Positions 17,030 through 22,050 of a DNA stretch of 64,000 bases are shown here, one piece after another. The DNA comes from Prochlorococcus sp. AG-418-I21 (GTDB lineage: Bacteria > Cyanobacteriota > Cyanobacteriia > PCC-6307 > Cyanobiaceae), in assembly GCA_003214115.1 (NCBI GenBank), contig QCMA01000001.1, positions 22,905-86,904 on the forward strand. Direction: 5' to 3'. Made by a program: the position numbers and the translations under genes. Each line of letters starts with the position of its first letter. Positions within the stretch are counted from its first letter, which is position 1. The notes under the pieces were generated by a model. It was given only the letters and a program-made list of their open reading frames with translations. It had not been told where the DNA came from and made no database searches.

Positions 17030-17818
17030 TTGAAAAATATTGGTTTAATTTTGTTTGACATTGATGGGGTAATCCGGAGCGTAGAGAATAGTTATAGACT
17101 TTCTTTAAAAAAAACAGTTTACAAATTTTCCGGATGGGAGCCAAGTTATATAGATATTGATAATGCAAAAAATGAAGGGATCTGGAATAATGACTGGGAT
17201 TTAAGTTTAGAACTTATAAAAAGATGTATAAAAAAAGAGAACTTAAACCTTAAAATTCCTCCAAGAGAAGAAATAGTAAAATGTTTTGAAGGGTTTTACT
17301 TTGGTGGAGATCCAAATAAAGATAGTAAATACTGGTCTGGCTACATAACAAATGAGGAGTTATTAGTTGATAAAAAGTTTTTTGATTTAATTCAAGGTAA
17401 TGGAATAATGTGGGGTTTTGTTAGTGGTGCAGAGTCTGCTTCTGCAAAATTTGTTTTAGAAAAAAGACTTGGATTAAAATCACCCCCATTAATCTCTATG
17501 GGAGATGCCCCTGACAAGCCTGATCCTAAAGGTTTTATTAACTTATCAAAAAAGCTTATTGGAGATAAACTTGGCGAATCAAATATTCCCATTGCATATG
17601 TAGGAGATACTATTGCAGATATAAATACAGTTATAAACGCTAGAAAGGAAATACCATCTCAGAAATTCATAAGTATCGGAATAGCTCCCCCTCATTTACA
17701 TTTAAATTCTCGATTAAAAGAACGTAATTCTTACGAGACAAATCTTAGAGATGCAGGCGCTGACTTGATTTTAAATTCTATTTATGACCTTAAAGATATT
17801 AATCTTAACTTGTTCTAA
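17030..17818 (+). CDS. HAD-superfamily hydrolase (TIGR01548-like)
   Basis: FDIDGV motif I, WNNDWD, KPDP, YVGDT.AD. Confidence 0.85.
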   Translation: MKNIGLILFDIDGVIRSVENSYRLSLKKTVYKFSGWEPSYIDIDNAKNEGIWNNDWDLSLELIKRCIKKENLNLKIPPREEIVKCFEGFYFGGDPNKDSKYWSGYITNEELLVDKKFFDLIQGNGIMWGFVSGAESASAKFVLEKRLGLKSPPLISMGDAPDKPDPKGFINLSKKLIGDKLGESNIPIAYVGDTIADINTVINARKEIPSQKFISIGIAPPHLHLNSRLKERNSYETNLRDAGADLILNSIYDLKDINLNLF

Positions 17819-17893
17819 AAAAAATATTAATTAAAAATGTTCTTTATTACTTTTAAGTCTAAAGTTAAATATATTATTTTCTAGATTGAAAAA

Positions 17894-19750
17894 GTGAGCA
17901 ATTATATCCTTGGTTTATCTTGTTACTACCATGATAGTGCCGTTGTCCTGATAAAAAACGGAGAAATAGTTGTAGCAGTTCAAGAAGAAAGATTTTCTAG
18001 AAAGAAGCATGATTCTAGATTTCCAATAAATGCAATACGATACACTCTTAAATCGCAAAATATTGACTTAAGAGATATTGAAATGATTGTCTACTACGAG
18101 AAACCACTTCTAACTTTTGAGAGATTATTAGAAACATATCTTGCTGTTGCACCTAGAGGATTACGTTCATTTATTGCAGCAATGCAAGTATGGTTAAAAG
18201 AAAAATTATTTCTCAAATCAGAACTTACTCGCAAATTCAAATCCTTACAAAAAGAACTTTTTCCAAATACTAAACCTCATATTCCAAAATTTTTATTCTC
18301 AGAGCATCACCTTTCTCATGCCGCCGCCGCCTTCTACCCTAGCCCATTTGATGAGTCAGTAATACTTTGTATGGATGGAGTAGGTGAATGGGCAACTACG
18401 TCTACATGGGTGGGCAAAAAGAATGAAATTAATCCTCTTTGGGAAATCAGTTTTCCTCACTCTCTTGGTCTTCTTTACTCTGCTTTTACTTACTATTGCG
18501 GTTTCAAGGTTAATTCAGGTGAATATAAATTAATGGGTCTTGCTCCTTATGGAGAACCTAAATATACCAAATTAATCAAAGACAACTTAATTGATATCAA
18601 AGAAGACGGAACTTTCAAACTTGATATTAGTTATTTCAAATATCATCGTGGTTTTCGCATGACGTCAAGAAAATTCGACAAACTATTTGGGAAATCACCA
18701 CGTAAAGGAGAAAGTGAGTTATCGCAGTTCCATATGGATATAGCGGCGTCCATTCAGGCAGTCACTGAAGAAGTTGTACTTAAATTGGCGAGAAGACTTC
18801 GAGAAGAGACAGGTATAAAAAAACTTTGCCTTGGTGGAGGGGTAGCACTTAATTGTGTTGCTAATGGAGTACTTTTAAGAGAAAATATATTTGATAATAT
18901 TTGGATTCAACCAGCGAGTGGAGATGCGGGTTCAGCACTAGGTGCTGCCCTAGTTGGATGGCACCAACATCAAGAGCAGGAAAGAGTTGTTAACACGAGC
19001 GATTCAATGAAAGGAACCTACTTGGGTCCTAAGTTCATGAACGATGATATAACAAACTATCTAAATCAGATTAATGCACCATTTCATACTTACAGTGATC
19101 CAGAATTATTTGAGCGACTAGCAGAGGAACTTGAGAAAGGTCATGTGATTGGTTGGTTTAATGGTCGTATGGAGTTCGGTCCAAGGGCATTAGGGGGACG
19201 CTCCATCATTGGGGACCCTCGTAATCAGAAGATGCAGAGCGTGATGAACCTGAAAATCAAGTATAGAGAGAGTTTTCGTCCCTTTGCTCCATCTGTTCTG
19301 GAAGAAGACGTCAGTAATCAATTCGAGATGGATGTCAAGAGTCCTTACATGCTTCTGGTTGCACCAGTCAAAAAAGAACTCTGTAAGCAGATGACAGAAG
19401 AGGAAGATAAACTCTTTGGAATCGAAAAACTCAACATCCCACGGTCTTCACTACCAGCAATAACTCATATTGACTACTCAGCAAGGGTTCAAACAGTAAG
19501 CAAAACCACGAATCCTCGCTATCACAACTTGATTAGTGCATTTAAACGAAAAACTGGATGCCCCACCATCGTTAACACATCATTTAACGTGAGAGGAGAG
19601 CCCATTGTGTGCACTCCTCAAGATGCATACAGATGCTTTATGAGGACAGAAATGGATATATTGGTTCTTCAAAATCAAGTCCTCTTTAAGAGAGAGCAAC
19701 CAAAGGTTGAAAAAGATGAAACATGGATGCAGGAGTTTGAACTAGATTGA
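17894..19750 (+). CDS. O-carbamoyltransferase, NodU/CmcH/TobZ family (SxtI-like)
   Basis: YYHDSA, EERFSRKKH, EHHLSHAA, MDGVGE, EYKLMGLAPYG, GGVALNC, EFGPRALGGRS, KYRESFRPFAP, SARVQTV, NTSFNVRGEPIV. GTG start. Confidence 0.95.
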   Translation: MSNYILGLSCYYHDSAVVLIKNGEIVVAVQEERFSRKKHDSRFPINAIRYTLKSQNIDLRDIEMIVYYEKPLLTFERLLETYLAVAPRGLRSFIAAMQVWLKEKLFLKSELTRKFKSLQKELFPNTKPHIPKFLFSEHHLSHAAAAFYPSPFDESVILCMDGVGEWATTSTWVGKKNEINPLWEISFPHSLGLLYSAFTYYCGFKVNSGEYKLMGLAPYGEPKYTKLIKDNLIDIKEDGTFKLDISYFKYHRGFRMTSRKFDKLFGKSPRKGESELSQFHMDIAASIQAVTEEVVLKLARRLREETGIKKLCLGGGVALNCVANGVLLRENIFDNIWIQPASGDAGSALGAALVGWHQHQEQERVVNTSDSMKGTYLGPKFMNDDITNYLNQINAPFHTYSDPELFERLAEELEKGHVIGWFNGRMEFGPRALGGRSIIGDPRNQKMQSVMNLKIKYRESFRPFAPSVLEEDVSNQFEMDVKSPYMLLVAPVKKELCKQMTEEEDKLFGIEKLNIPRSSLPAITHIDYSARVQTVSKTTNPRYHNLISAFKRKTGCPTIVNTSFNVRGEPIVCTPQDAYRCFMRTEMDILVLQNQVLFKREQPKVEKDETWMQEFELD

Positions 19751-19752
19751 TC

Positions 19753-20145
19753 ATGAAAGAAATAATTTCAAAAAAACAACTTCAAGAGTTTGGACTTTTA
19801 ATTGGATTTGGATTCCCATTATTGATTGGTTGGTTGATTCCTTCACTCACGGGTCATGGATTTAGGGCATGGACTCTATGGGTCGGATTTCTAGGATTAA
19901 TATCTGGAATCATCTTTCCACGTTCTCTATACTATCCATACAAGTTTTGGATGAAACTCGGTCTTACACTTGGATGGGTTAATAGCAGAATTATTCTTGG
20001 TCTTGTATTCATAATTGTTCTTCTACCAATTTCATTTGTAATGCGTCTTATTGGATATGATCCATTACGAACTAAACTAAAAAAAGTTAAGACTTATAGA
20101 GAAAACCGAAAAAATCATAAAACAGACCTCACTCGCATTTTTTGA
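19753..20145 (+). CDS. SxtJ-family membrane protein
   Basis: KKQLQEFGL, TM helices, WMKLG..LGWVNSRIILG, GYDPL. ATG 2 bp after the carbamoyltransferase stop (track uses TTG 19747). Confidence 0.85.
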   Translation: MKEIISKKQLQEFGLLIGFGFPLLIGWLIPSLTGHGFRAWTLWVGFLGLISGIIFPRSLYYPYKFWMKLGLTLGWVNSRIILGLVFIIVLLPISFVMRLIGYDPLRTKLKKVKTYRENRKNHKTDLTRIF

Positions 20146-20148
20146 ACT

Positions 20149-20310
20149 ATGGAAGCATTTTTTGATCTCGCTAAAGACATTTGGGACTTTATGAAGGTTC
20201 GAAAAAAGTACTGGTTAGCACCTTTGATTATCACGATTGTCTTAATGGGAACTCTTATTGTATTTACACAGGGTTCAGTAGTTGCACCCTTTATTTACTC
20301 TATTTTCTGA
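20149..20310 (+). CDS. 53-aa single-TM peptide, SxtK/DUF5989-like (not in ORF track)
   Basis: Manual translation MEAFFDLAKDIWDFMKVRKKYWLAPLIITIVLMGTLIVFTQGSVVAPFIYSIF*; RKKYWL.P and APFIY..F signatures; 3 bp after the previous stop. Confidence 0.9.
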   Translation: MEAFFDLAKDIWDFMKVRKKYWLAPLIITIVLMGTLIVFTQGSVVAPFIYSIF

Positions 20311-20316
20311 TAAGGG

Positions 20317-21399
20317 ATGAGTCCTCGCTCATTAATCAAAGTTTTCCTTGTGAATCTCACCATACTGGGGATACTTCTTTTATGTGGAGAATTTGGATTT
20401 AGACTTCTAAGGTTTGCAAGAAGTTGTAAGATAACTTGTGATTTCTCATATCTTTCTATAATTACAAGTAGTCAGAGAAACAAATGGAGCCATGGAATCA
20501 GCAGGTTCAGTCAAGTTTTAGGTTATGAACCCAATAGCGATCTGAATCTTGTTATTAATGCAGTTGGTTGGAAAGATATTAAGGTATCGACTGATAGCAA
20601 TGGATTTCGAAATTCGAATCCAAACCCTGCTGCCAATTTCAAGATACTTACTGTTGGAGACAGTTACACTTTTGGAGACCAGGTTTCTGATAGTGACACC
20701 TGGCAAGCATGCCTGAACAAAAGGTTTAAAGATTATGAATTTGTGAATGCAGGTGTATTTGGATATGGCACACACCAAGCTCTATTGCGTTCTCAAGAGA
20801 TAATAAAAGAGAACCCATACAAATACGTAATTCTGCAAACACTTGTTGGAGAGAACTTTAAACGCGACCAATTAGACATTAGATCAGGTTTCGTGAAACC
20901 TTATTTAAAAAAATCTAATGGAAATATAGTTTTATCACCTCCCCCTCCTAGAAGCACCCCAAATACTAAGTATGGTCCACCTGAGATTTCGCTTGCAGAT
21001 TACCTCTTGGCGAATATAAGATTACTAGAAAAAGTCCCTCAGGCAAGCGGTTACCATTTCAATGCCTTTAGTAAAGTGAATGGAACTATTAACAGACGCG
21101 GAATAGACAGTGCTACTATTGAGGAAATTATCGAGCAAACAGTAAATTCTTCGACAACCCGAAGTATGCCCTTCATCTGGTTACTGCAATACAGAAGTAA
21201 AGTAGATCAAAATACTCTCAACGAAAGGAAGATTATCATAAGTAAACTTAAAAGCAAAAACATTGCGTTCATAGATACATTTAATGTTTTGCACATAAGC
21301 AAAATGTACTCCAAAGATCAATTATGGCGTGGTCATCACACCCCACTGGGCAACAAGATTGTGTGCCAGGAAATAGCTAGTCACTTAGAGTCACTTTAA
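20317..21399 (+). CDS. Membrane-anchored SGNH/GDSL hydrolase-fold protein (SxtL-like position)
   Basis: N-terminal TM (VFLVNLTILGILLLCGEFGFR), SNGFR, VGDSYTFG (block I), NAGVFGYGT (block II), GHHTPLGN (block V His). Confidence 0.85.
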   Translation: MSPRSLIKVFLVNLTILGILLLCGEFGFRLLRFARSCKITCDFSYLSIITSSQRNKWSHGISRFSQVLGYEPNSDLNLVINAVGWKDIKVSTDSNGFRNSNPNPAANFKILTVGDSYTFGDQVSDSDTWQACLNKRFKDYEFVNAGVFGYGTHQALLRSQEIIKENPYKYVILQTLVGENFKRDQLDIRSGFVKPYLKKSNGNIVLSPPPPRSTPNTKYGPPEISLADYLLANIRLLEKVPQASGYHFNAFSKVNGTINRRGIDSATIEEIIEQTVNSSTTRSMPFIWLLQYRSKVDQNTLNERKIIISKLKSKNIAFIDTFNVLHISKMYSKDQLWRGHHTPLGNKIVCQEIASHLESL

Positions 21400-21433
21400 T
21401 TAAATGTTGGCATATAAAATTCAAATCCTTATT

Positions 21434-21568
21434 TTAATTTCGAATCGTTAAGATTAAATCTATACTTGCTAACTGTTTTTCTTCGTCAATTTCCTGATAT
21501 TCCAGAAGAACGGAAGAGATTTGTGAACTGAAATCACTGAATTTCTCTTCAGAAAGCTCTATGCTAAA
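21434..21568 (-). pseudogene. Possible gene fragment without a start codon
   Basis: 44 open codons FSIELSEEKFSDFSSQISSVLLEYQEIDEEKQLASIDLILTIRN*, preceded in frame by TGA; no ATG/GTG/TTG. Confidence 0.3.
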
Positions 21569-21874
21569 TCAATTTAATTAATTGACTGCGGTCAAAATTT
21601 TCTTACCAAACAGAAATCCCAATTCCAAATATTAGAGTTAAAAATAATTTCTTCCCGTTAAATCCTTATGATTAATCTTAAAGATCCTTAGAATATCTAA
21701 ATTTGAAGAGTAAGGAACGTCCACTGACCTTTATGTACTAAGTTCAAAAAGTAATCGCTATGTTTACCTTAGTCATTAAGCTATGCGTTAATTAGTGATC
21801 ACTATGAATTAGGTTTAAATAATATTTTTATCCACGACAATCGCTTAGAACGTACTCTCTGAATGCGTTATCTC

Positions 21875-21926
21875 TACCCACCATTTTTACTCCAGATATT
21901 CGTTTTACCAACCAATTTACCCACCA
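21875..21926. repeat. Three TACC(C/A)ACCA direct repeats, integrase arm-type-like
   Basis: TACCCACCA 21875-21883, TACCAACCA 21906-21914, TACCCACCA 21918-21926. Confidence 0.7.
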
Positions 21927-21944
21927 GTTTGTTGACTTAATATT

Positions 21945-22040
21945 GAACCGGTGTGAACTTGTAAGAACCTCATATTCGGGCATCAGTAGTAATATTAATA
22001 GATCTGAATCTTCAGCGAACTTTTATAAACTTCCACGAAC
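21945..22040. repeat. Two arrays of 10-bp-phased GAAC motifs
   Basis: GAAC at 21945, 21955, 21965; GAAC/AAAC/GAAC at 22017, 22027, 22037. Confidence 0.5.
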
Positions 22041-22050
22041 CAAATAATTA

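What the first reader, a model, noticed from the sequence alone, without database searches (positions are those of the whole stretch)
17894..21399. Candidate MBOAT-free carbamoyl relay for cell-surface polymer modification (sxtI/J/K/L-like cassette)
Seen: a tightly coupled operon (gaps 2, 3 and 6 bp) of a TobZ/NodU-type carbamoyltransferase, an SxtJ-like membrane protein, a 53-aa TM peptide ending FIYSIF, and an N-terminally anchored SGNH protein. No toxin or secondary-metabolite core genes are present. Established: NodU/TobZ enzymes are cytoplasmic and use ATP plus carbamoyl phosphate; in Dlt/Alg/Pat pathways an acyl group passes from an MBOAT to a Tyr in a C-terminal FIYxxF motif, then to the Ser of an extracytoplasmic SGNH protein, then to the polymer. 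Inference: the carbamoyltransferase plus SxtJ replace the MBOAT, the peptide is the shuttle, and the SGNH protein is the final transferase carbamoylating LPS, EPS or another envelope glycan, plausibly altering phage or grazer recognition. This would also reinterpret sxtJ/K/L. Open problem: how the carbamoyl group crosses the membrane.
Basis: partly seen in the sequence, partly recalled or inferred. Interest (0 to 1): 0.88.

Follow-up and report, generated by a model that had tools for sequence, protein, structure and literature searches.

The report
Tyrosine-tail carbamoyl relay without MBOAT

Summary
Observation confirmed: carbamoyltransferase (CT), SxtJ, SxtK/DUF5989 ending FIYSIF and an N-anchored SGNH gene, gaps 2/3/6 bp, form a ~4.2-kb insertion between a HAD gene and alr. 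The Tyr is invariant in 103 of 103 peptides. All 73 genomes with this CT clade carry the peptide, even when unlinked. The SGNH family tracks it: within 5 kb of 40 of 56 peptide-linked versus 1 of 19 peptide-less CTs; in 20 of 20 versus 12 of 48 near-complete genomes of the genus. No MBOAT in 15 of 15 genomes tested. The CT acceptor pocket (mapped from GdmN) is frozen across 12 phyla, 79% identical even to saxitoxin SxtI, while the SGNH is hypervariable: one constant acceptor, many end targets. Best reading (0.55): a Tyr-shuttle carbamoyl relay. Not shown: Tyr chemistry, membrane crossing, the acceptor; no complex model was available. Rival: CT-J-K acts directly and the SGNH removes carbamoyl. 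Not found in the papers searched, but this scan noted the same idea on four other genomes.

The parts
17894..19750 (+). Class III (NodU/TobZ/CmcH-type) O-carbamoyltransferase of the SxtK-linked clade (SxtI homologue); no TM helix; catalytic H13, metal ligands H138/H142/D161/D344 by alignment to GdmN; clade signatures at 68-107, 496-516 and a C-terminal WxxEFELD
   Evidence: Pfam; PDB; alignment; signatures; TM count; tree; GdmN residues from PMC9633730 passages
19753..20145 (+). SxtJ membrane protein: two TM helices, a K/W-rich helix, a Pro92-kinked hydrophobic segment between basic flanks (possibly re-entrant), basic C-tail; likely membrane adaptor for the CT
   Evidence: Pfam; column profile; AF2 model; one natural CT-SxtJ fusion, L080:3544-5787
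20149..20310 (+). SxtK/DUF5989 microprotein: N-terminal helix, basic KVRKK, one TM (21-40), uncharged tail QGSVVAPFIYSIF; predicted N-in/C-out like DltX
   Evidence: Pfam; alignment; column profile
20290..20307 (+). FxYxxF motif F48-I49-Y50-S51-I52-F53 (Tyr50 codon 20296-20298), the candidate carbamoyl carrier
   Evidence: Sequence; F48 and Y50 invariant in 103 of 103; motif defined in PMC12148441
20317..21399 (+). N-terminally anchored SGNH protein (SxtL-like): Ser116 (20662-20664), block II Gly149, His340 (21334-21336), no block V Asp; a rare, divergent allele
   Evidence: 22% identity to SxtL-type L079, E 2e-8; 1 close homologue in 200 other genomes of the genus
17844..22040 (.). Approximate extent of the variable insertion between the HAD hydrolase gene and alr
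   Evidence: blastn against G016/G028/G024 loci; contigs joining about 17,801-17,835 directly to about 22,043-22,046

Best explanation
This four-gene cassette likely works as an MBOAT-free carbamoyl relay: the cytoplasmic carbamoyltransferase, probably held at the inner membrane by SxtJ, would load a carbamoyl group onto Tyr50 in the tail of SxtK, and the outward-facing SGNH protein would take it on Ser116 and hand it to a hydroxyl outside the inner membrane, here most likely an envelope glycan. Shown here: gene anatomy, invariant motif, strict CT-J-K co-inheritance, co-inheritance of an anchored SGNH family, no MBOAT in the 15 genomes tested, frozen CT pocket and variable SGNH. Established for the family: class III CTases make carbamoyl-AMP from ATP and carbamoyl phosphate and use a His base. 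Inferred: the Tyr and Ser intermediates. Most speculative: the crossing. The uncharged 12-residue tail would dip into a locally thinned membrane formed by SxtJ's short TM2 and its Pro-kinked segment, meet the CT pocket from the inside and swing out again. The SGNH allele would set the end target, which explains its swapping and tandem expansion.
For: Y50, F48, P25 invariant in 103 peptides; in the 45 found without a motif-bearing pattern, Tyr 45 of 45 and full FxYxxF 40 of 45. Basic residues only on the N-side of the TM. Two AlgI-type MBOATs next to such cassettes end PFVYFQF, the same tail. CT above 900 bits in 73 of 78 peptide-positive and 0 of 323 peptide-negative genomes, including unlinked cases. 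SGNH within 5 kb of 40 of 56 versus 1 of 19 CTs, with a profile built only from other phyla. Family f31: a close SGNH (E 1e-80 to 1e-91) in 13 of 13 peptide-positive genomes, none of which supplied training rows, unlinked wherever both places were listed; only a background SGNH (E 1e-35 to 1e-42) in 8 of 8 negative ones. Genus: 38 of 42 held-out peptide-positive versus 22 of 153 negative genomes; 20 of 20 versus 12 of 48 at 90% completeness or more. MBOAT in 0 of 15. Pocket more conserved than the rest in 4,283 of 4,283 peptide-linked pairs (79 vs 57%) but in 62 of 117 peptide-less pairs (34 vs 39%); window versus SxtI-type L079 79 vs 61%. SGNH median pairwise identity 18%. SGNH N-terminal TM in 113 of 122; even Cys counts 47 versus odd 10, as expected for disulfide-bonded outside domains. 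In Lyngbya wollei sxtI is truncated and sxtL absent together, and decarbamoyl forms are made without SxtL (PMC3037375 passages).
Against: The CT has no TM or obvious export signal (0 TM in 102) while the Tyr is predicted outside, and SxtJ is far smaller than an MBOAT. The SGNH keeps block II Gly (53 of 79), the hydrolase-type feature that PatB and OatA replace (PMC12148441). The window protein, like 25 of 79 relatives, has no Asp before the His. An SGNH was within 5 kb of CT in only 26 of 54 non-cyanobacterial loci, and SGNH hits exist in 22 of 153 peptide-negative genomes of the genus. In the Gastranaerophilales-like family f46 none of 5 loci with a 'FIYTII' peptide had one nearby. The closest full-length solved match, CgnD, is a leader-removing hydrolase. 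Only about 20 of 61 non-cyanobacterial and 12 of 37 cyanobacterial loci had a glycan gene among the nearest neighbours (hand count; no background control; peptide-less CTs also lie among glycosyltransferases). None flanks the cassette in this window. Kin and sequence pairs are not independent.
Confidence: 0.55

Rival explanations
1. CT, SxtJ and SxtK form a complete membrane-tethered carbamoyltransferase that acts directly on a lipid-linked sugar or small molecule at the cytoplasmic face. The Tyr tail is structural, and the SGNH is a periplasmic decarbamoylase or editing hydrolase, as proposed for SxtL.
For: No crossing problem. CT+J occur in 70 of 80 GTDB loci but an SGNH in 43 of 80. Block II Gly retained. 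SxtL is annotated as a decarbamoylase and SxtI/J/K as the carbamoylating set, both as proposals (PMC2679770, PMC2885083 passages). CgnD is a hydrolase.
Against: It does not explain an invariant terminal FxYxxF on the predicted outer side. Nor does it explain a CT pocket as alike between a picocyanobacterium and a saxitoxin cluster as among glycan loci, when pockets of direct-acting CTases co-evolve with their substrates (PMC9633730). Peptide-less CTs almost never have an SGNH neighbour (1 of 19), so carbamoylation alone does not call for an eraser.
Confidence: 0.25
2. All four proteins act in one forward pathway, but the Tyr is not a covalent carrier: SxtJ/SxtK oligomers pass a labile donor (carbamoyl-AMP or cyanate) or the acceptor itself across the membrane, and the tail only docks or activates the SGNH.
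For: Same co-inheritance data as the best explanation; avoids a tail that has to visit both faces.
Against: In the two studied pathways with this motif the Tyr is the covalent carrier (PMC12148441). Phe never replaces Tyr50 in 103 sequences. SxtK's TM has no conserved polar residue to line a pore.
Confidence: 0.12
3. The relay or direct transfer in this genome serves an exported small molecule or a protein, not an envelope glycan.
For: Cassettes sit beside MATE/MFS exporters and tailoring genes in L076, L079 (saxitoxin cluster) and L080, and near NRPS/PKS domains in L155 and L170. No glycan gene flanks the window's cassette.
Against: The closest homologue of the window's SGNH (45% identity) lies beside a CT-J-K cassette among genes that read as nucleotide-sugar and glycosyltransferase genes (G583, by eye). 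7 of 16 picocyanobacterial loci have glycan neighbours. Patchy presence (48 of 201 genomes) and allele swapping resemble surface-glycan islands.
Confidence: 0.08

Closest known systems
DltB-DltX-DltD (teichoic acid D-alanylation)
   Same: Single-TM microprotein ending in FXYXXF, encoded with a membrane-anchored SGNH protein (as described in PMC12148441; the original Dlt paper was not held).
   Different: No MBOAT and no carrier protein; the donor enzyme is a soluble ATP-dependent class III carbamoyltransferase; the group would be carbamoyl; SxtK shows no Pfam hit to a DltX family.
PatA-PatB, AlgI-AlgJ/X and WssH-type MBOAT-SGNH acetylation pairs
   Same: Same terminal motif with the preceding Pro (PFVYFQF in two AlgI-type MBOATs beside such cassettes); 14 of 79 SGNH relatives hit Pfam ALGX; DxH block V in 32 of 79.
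   Different: The motif is on a free microprotein; similarity to the MBOAT C-terminus is limited to the six residues (hhalign probability 1%); block II Gly is kept; SGNH order is canonical.
Saxitoxin cluster genes sxtI-sxtJ-sxtK-sxtL
   Same: Same gene order and families; CT 63% identical to an SxtI-type protein, pocket 79%; SGNH 22% identical to SxtL-type, E 2e-8.
   Different: No toxin pathway around the cassette or found in this genome. The sxt copy nests inside a large clade of non-toxin cassettes, so it looks like one recruitment of a general module. Papers read call J and K unknown and L a putative decarbamoylase.
Class III carbamoyltransferases TobZ, GdmN, NovN, NodU
   Same: Kae1-like plus YrdC-like domains, His base and metal ligands.
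   Different: Those act alone on soluble acceptors with substrate-specific pockets; this clade carries three signature segments, always travels with SxtJ/K, and scores 144 bits against the NodU equivalog (cut-off 1000).
Crocagin CgnD (SGNH) with carbamoyltransferase CgnI
   Same: Best full-length solved match to the SGNH profile and model; an SGNH and a carbamoyltransferase in one cluster.
   Different: CgnD removes a leader peptide in vitro, slowly (PMC10070186 passages); no J/K genes are named in that text.

Membership tests
MBOAT-SGNH acyl relay (Dlt/Pat/Alg) | MBOAT protein (PF03062) | tested here: not met
   None in the cassette; 0 of 15 peptide- and SGNH-positive genomes, 14 of them at least 97% complete; control search rings in 3 of 14
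MBOAT-SGNH acyl relay (Dlt/Pat/Alg) | C-terminal FXYXXF after a TM helix | tested here: met
   FIYSIF; F48/Y50 invariant in 103 of 103
MBOAT-SGNH acyl relay (Dlt/Pat/Alg) | Membrane-anchored extracytoplasmic SGNH partner with Ser and His | tested here: met
   N-terminal TM, S116 invariant, H340 in 74 of 79; outside location predicted from charge bias (42 vs 11) and even Cys counts
MBOAT-SGNH acyl relay (Dlt/Pat/Alg) | Transferase-type block II (Gly replaced) and full Ser-His-Asp triad | tested here: not met
   Window SGNH has Gly149 and no Asp at -2/-3 of His340; family mixed
MBOAT-SGNH acyl relay (Dlt/Pat/Alg) | Covalent acyl-Tyr and acyl-Ser intermediates | not testable with these tools
   Needs biochemistry
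DltX microprotein family | Sequence homology beyond the motif | tested here: inconclusive
   No DltX-family hit among the 25 of 29 Pfam families shown for 103 members at E up to 5; no PDB hit; weak homology of 50-residue peptides can be missed
Class III carbamoyltransferase (NodU/CmcH/TobZ) | Carbam_trans_N and _C domains with His base, two-His two-Asp metal site and GPRALGxRS | tested here: met
NodU equivalog | NCBIfam NF041651 above cut-off | tested here: not met
   144 bits versus 1000
SxtI/J/K/L module | PF19588 and PF19451 genes with the SxtK-linked CT clade and an SxtL-like SGNH | tested here: met
Saxitoxin biosynthetic cluster | Core pathway genes beside the module | tested here: not met
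   Housekeeping neighbours; four pathway-side genes of L079 without full-length hits in this 68%-complete genome; other core genes were not searched

The most novel reading that the evidence does not exclude
A third architecture for trans-membrane acylation: a soluble ATP-driven carbamoyltransferase loads a microprotein's terminal Tyr through a membrane thinned by a 130-residue adaptor, with no MBOAT or AT3 tunnel, and swappable SGNH enzymes carbamoylate glycans and exported metabolites outside the cytoplasm across at least 12 phyla. SxtL would then be the terminal carbamoyltransferase of saxitoxin, not a decarbamoylase.
Probability: 0.5. Interest if true: 0.9.

Novelty: new variant of a known kind. 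Interest (0 to 1): 0.76.

Why it matters
It would give a function to two unknown families (SxtJ, DUF5989) found in at least 585 GTDB records and a quarter of this genus's genomes. It would extend the Tyr-shuttle logic to a new chemical group and a new donor enzyme, and re-read the last step of a much-studied toxin pathway. It also predicts a strain-variable carbamoyl decoration on the surface of abundant marine bacteria (picocyanobacteria, SAR11), which could affect phage and grazer recognition (inference). The model is testable with four small genes and three point mutants.

Tried and rejected
Homology of SxtK to the MBOAT C-terminal helices: only the motif aligns. SxtJ fold search: best Z 5.7, generic helices, uninformative. 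ESM Atlas: no usable hit outside PF19451. PDB search with the K profile: none. J-K and CT-K fusions among longer proteins: not used, since several look like frameshift-joined gene calls on short contigs; P0291 and P0275 are in-frame but J and K are in frame in the window too. No K-SGNH or K-MBOAT fusion appeared among the 120 rows listed of 1,055. 'Amphipathic helix 70-107' in the CT: not among the 8 strongest hydrophobic moments, so not claimed. Phage carriage: 5 loci in IMG/VR, one full-length peptide (L171) without CT or J nearby, the other four not examined. Promoter/terminator scan: no excess over shuffles. RNA-library contigs bridge CT-J and J-K, but contigs do not show transcription. 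The first CT tree did not finish and was rebuilt with FastTree. Rows left out: SGNH alignment 79 rows from 114 after dereplication at 60%; CT, J and K alignments length-filtered (102 of 123, 89 of 124, 103 of 133 hits); three duplicate loci dropped; L110 and L221 left out of the pocket comparison because each sits in the other clade; 224 of 225 listed neighbours scanned, cut to the first 370 aa (340 aa). The E-value split was chosen after seeing the data. Literature: no paper held DUF5989 or 'SxtJ family membrane protein', none held carbamoyltransferase+SGNH+operon+lipopolysaccharide, and the DltX/MBOAT/SGNH searches gave only the PatAB paper with 0 'carbamoyl'. The Dlt mechanism paper (Schultz 2023) and all supplements were not seen and could mention this family.
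Full report
OBSERVATION. The four ORFs, their lengths, the 2/3/6-bp gaps and the FIYSIF ending are as described. Pfam gives a class III carbamoyltransferase (CT), SxtJ (J), DUF5989 (K) and a weak GDSL hit. The AlphaFold2 model of the fourth protein has an N-terminal helix and an SGNH fold. The host is a Prochlorococcus-like genome (inferred from psaAB, low GC and names of close hits), 68% complete. The cassette is an insertion of about 4.2 kb between a HAD gene and alr. GC3 of CT, K and the SGNH gene is 0.31-0.35 (J 0.22) against 0.17-0.28 in eight nearby genes. G016, G028 and G024 hold a CT-J-K cassette at the same site in the opposite orientation, 76-77% identical, without an SGNH gene. Contigs from two DNA runs join the flanks directly, and summed depth on the cassette is far below that on the flanks (contig depth is no cell share).

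THE CORE. In 80 GTDB loci, CT and J are both present in 70; several misses are short contigs. A CT scoring above 900 bits occurs in 73 of 78 K-positive and 0 of 323 K-negative genomes, also where CT and J-K have been separated by hundreds of kb. K-linked CTs from 12 phyla form one branch (101 of 102 rows, plus one K-less row; FastTree support 99) with three signature segments absent from K-less CTs. One genome has a natural CT-J fusion. So CT, J and K are one functional unit, and J is likely its membrane adaptor.

THE PEPTIDE. K has an N-terminal helix, a basic patch (R18 96%, K19, K20), one TM, and an uncharged tail; F48 and Y50 are invariant in 103 sequences. One of the two GTDB search patterns contained APFIY, so I recounted on the 45 peptides found without it: Tyr 45 of 45, full FxYxxF 40 of 45, five ending FIYTII. 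PMC12148441 (abstract, passages, Discussion) defines FXYXXF as the acyl-shuttle motif of DltX and of the MBOAT C-terminus and shows acetyl-Tyr in PatA. Two cassettes have an AlgI-type MBOAT ending PFVYFQF and its own SGNH-like gene just upstream. Similarity to K stops at the motif.

THE SGNH. It is the commonest neighbour family (74 genes in 54 loci in the largest cluster), has an N-terminal TM in 113 of 122, and looks extracytoplasmic by charge bias and even Cys counts. With a profile built only from other phyla, an SGNH lies within 5 kb of 40 of 56 K-linked and 1 of 19 K-less cyanobacterial-phylum CTs; the reverse test gives 26 of 54 outside cyanobacteria. In family f31, 13 of 13 K-positive genomes have a close SGNH elsewhere, and 8 of 8 K-negative ones only a background SGNH. 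In the genus, 38 of 42 held-out K-positive and 22 of 153 K-negative genomes have one; at 90% completeness or more, 20 of 20 and 12 of 48. The three genomes with a bare cassette at the HAD-alr site all have SGNH hits elsewhere. None of 15 such genomes has an MBOAT. Against: the family also occurs without K; block II Gly is kept in 53 of 79; 25 of 79, the window's included, lack the Asp; five FIYTII loci have no SGNH nearby.

THE KEY ARGUMENT. PMC9633730 (passages) names the acceptor-pocket segments of GdmN and says that pockets co-evolve with substrates. Mapped by alignment (70 positions, my choice of limits), these segments are more conserved than the rest of the protein in 4,283 of 4,283 K-linked pairs (79 vs 57%) but in 62 of 117 K-less pairs (34 vs 39%); three segments are nearly letter-identical between the window and the SxtI-type protein of L079. 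SGNH partners share a median 18%, come in tandem runs of 3-5 in Microcoleus and Trichodesmium, and the window's allele has 1 close homologue in 200 genomes. A constant CT pocket with variable SGNH is what a relay predicts: one acceptor (the K tail) for CT, many for the SGNH. The pocket could instead be conserved to bind J/K, and pairs are not independent.

THE ACCEPTOR. Not settled. About 20 of 61 non-cyanobacterial and 12 of 37 cyanobacterial loci have a glycan gene among the nearest neighbours (hand counts; lower bounds, no control). The closest homologue of the window's SGNH sits by a CT-J-K cassette in what reads as an O-antigen island. L076, L079 and L080 are small-molecule clusters with MFS or MATE exporters beside the cassette, which fits modification after export but does not show it.

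MECHANISM. Step 1 (established for the family): carbamoyl-AMP from ATP and carbamoyl phosphate. Step 2 (inferred): transfer to Tyr50 with His13 as base. Step 3 (speculative): the tail reaches the CT through a membrane thinned by J, whose TM2 is short and whose segment 80-97 has a 98% conserved Pro and basic residues on both sides. Step 4 (inferred): carbamoyl-Ser116, then transfer to a hydroxyl. From general chemistry (recalled): aryl carbamates are better donors than alkyl carbamates, and carbamoyl-serine enzymes hydrolyse slowly, which would favour transfer even without a transferase-type block II. No complex model could be obtained.

LITERATURE AND NOVELTY. Passages of PMC2679770, PMC2684587, PMC2885083, PMC5132012, PMC12300590 and bioRxiv 10.64898/2026.06.11.731795 treat SxtJ/K as unknown helpers and SxtL as a proposed decarbamoylase; none of the passages reports an assay. 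PMC3037375 (passages): L. wollei has a truncated sxtI, lacks sxtL and makes decarbamoyl forms, which fits both readings. PMC10070186 (passages): CgnD is a slow protease. bioRxiv 10.64898/2026.04.03.716430 (passages) was irrelevant. Searches found no statement of a carbamoyl-Tyr relay; the Dlt paper and supplements were not seen. Four earlier notes of this scan reach the same idea on other genomes; I had set down my reading before seeing them and count them as no support. Verdict: works like Dlt/Pat by inference, is not a member (no MBOAT); new variant of a known kind; interest 0.76.

Noticed in passing
L070:1929-8199 (G431) and L078:4428-12843 (G401): An AlgI-type MBOAT ending PFVYFQF with its own SGNH-like gene lies directly upstream of CT-J-K-SGNH, among genes that read as 2-oxoglutarate dioxygenases and repeat-like unknown proteins: two Tyr-tail modules side by side, possibly in a small-molecule or peptide cluster.
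   Followed up: partly
L080:3544-7079 (G099): Natural in-frame CT-SxtJ fusion (747 aa) followed by an SGNH gene, with K on the opposite strand, next to MATE and PhyH genes.
   Followed up: partly
L079:927-8414 (G274): Saxitoxin-cluster segment (gene lengths match sxtH, M, I, J, K, L in PMC2679770); its SxtL has an N-terminal TM anchor and the MATE exporter overlaps the start of sxtI.
   Followed up: partly
window 17844-22040; L017, L019, L020: The HAD-alr intergenic site is an insertion hotspot holding related cassettes in either orientation; G028 also has an integrase-like and phage-like genes there (by eye).
   Followed up: partly
L194 (G028) versus L065 (G439): At the secA-ribH site G439 has the whole cassette while G028 keeps a lone SGNH-like gene and has CT-J-K elsewhere.
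   Followed up: partly
L083-L088: A K-J-CT arrangement in non-photosynthetic relatives (family f46) with divergent tails (FIYTII, FVYPFF) and no anchored SGNH within 5 kb in 5 of 6 loci; a test case for whether the SGNH is dispensable.
   Followed up: no
L128, L143, L159, L161, L171: K genes without CT or J in the fetched flanks, two of them beside an SGNH gene, one on an IMG/VR contig.
   Followed up: no
L206-L225: A separate K-less CT clade in cyanobacteria lies mostly among glycosyltransferase and asparagine-synthase-like genes, probably direct glycan carbamoylation.
   Followed up: partly
window 21400-22040: About 640 bp of non-coding DNA after the SGNH gene belongs to the insertion and was not characterised.
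   Followed up: no
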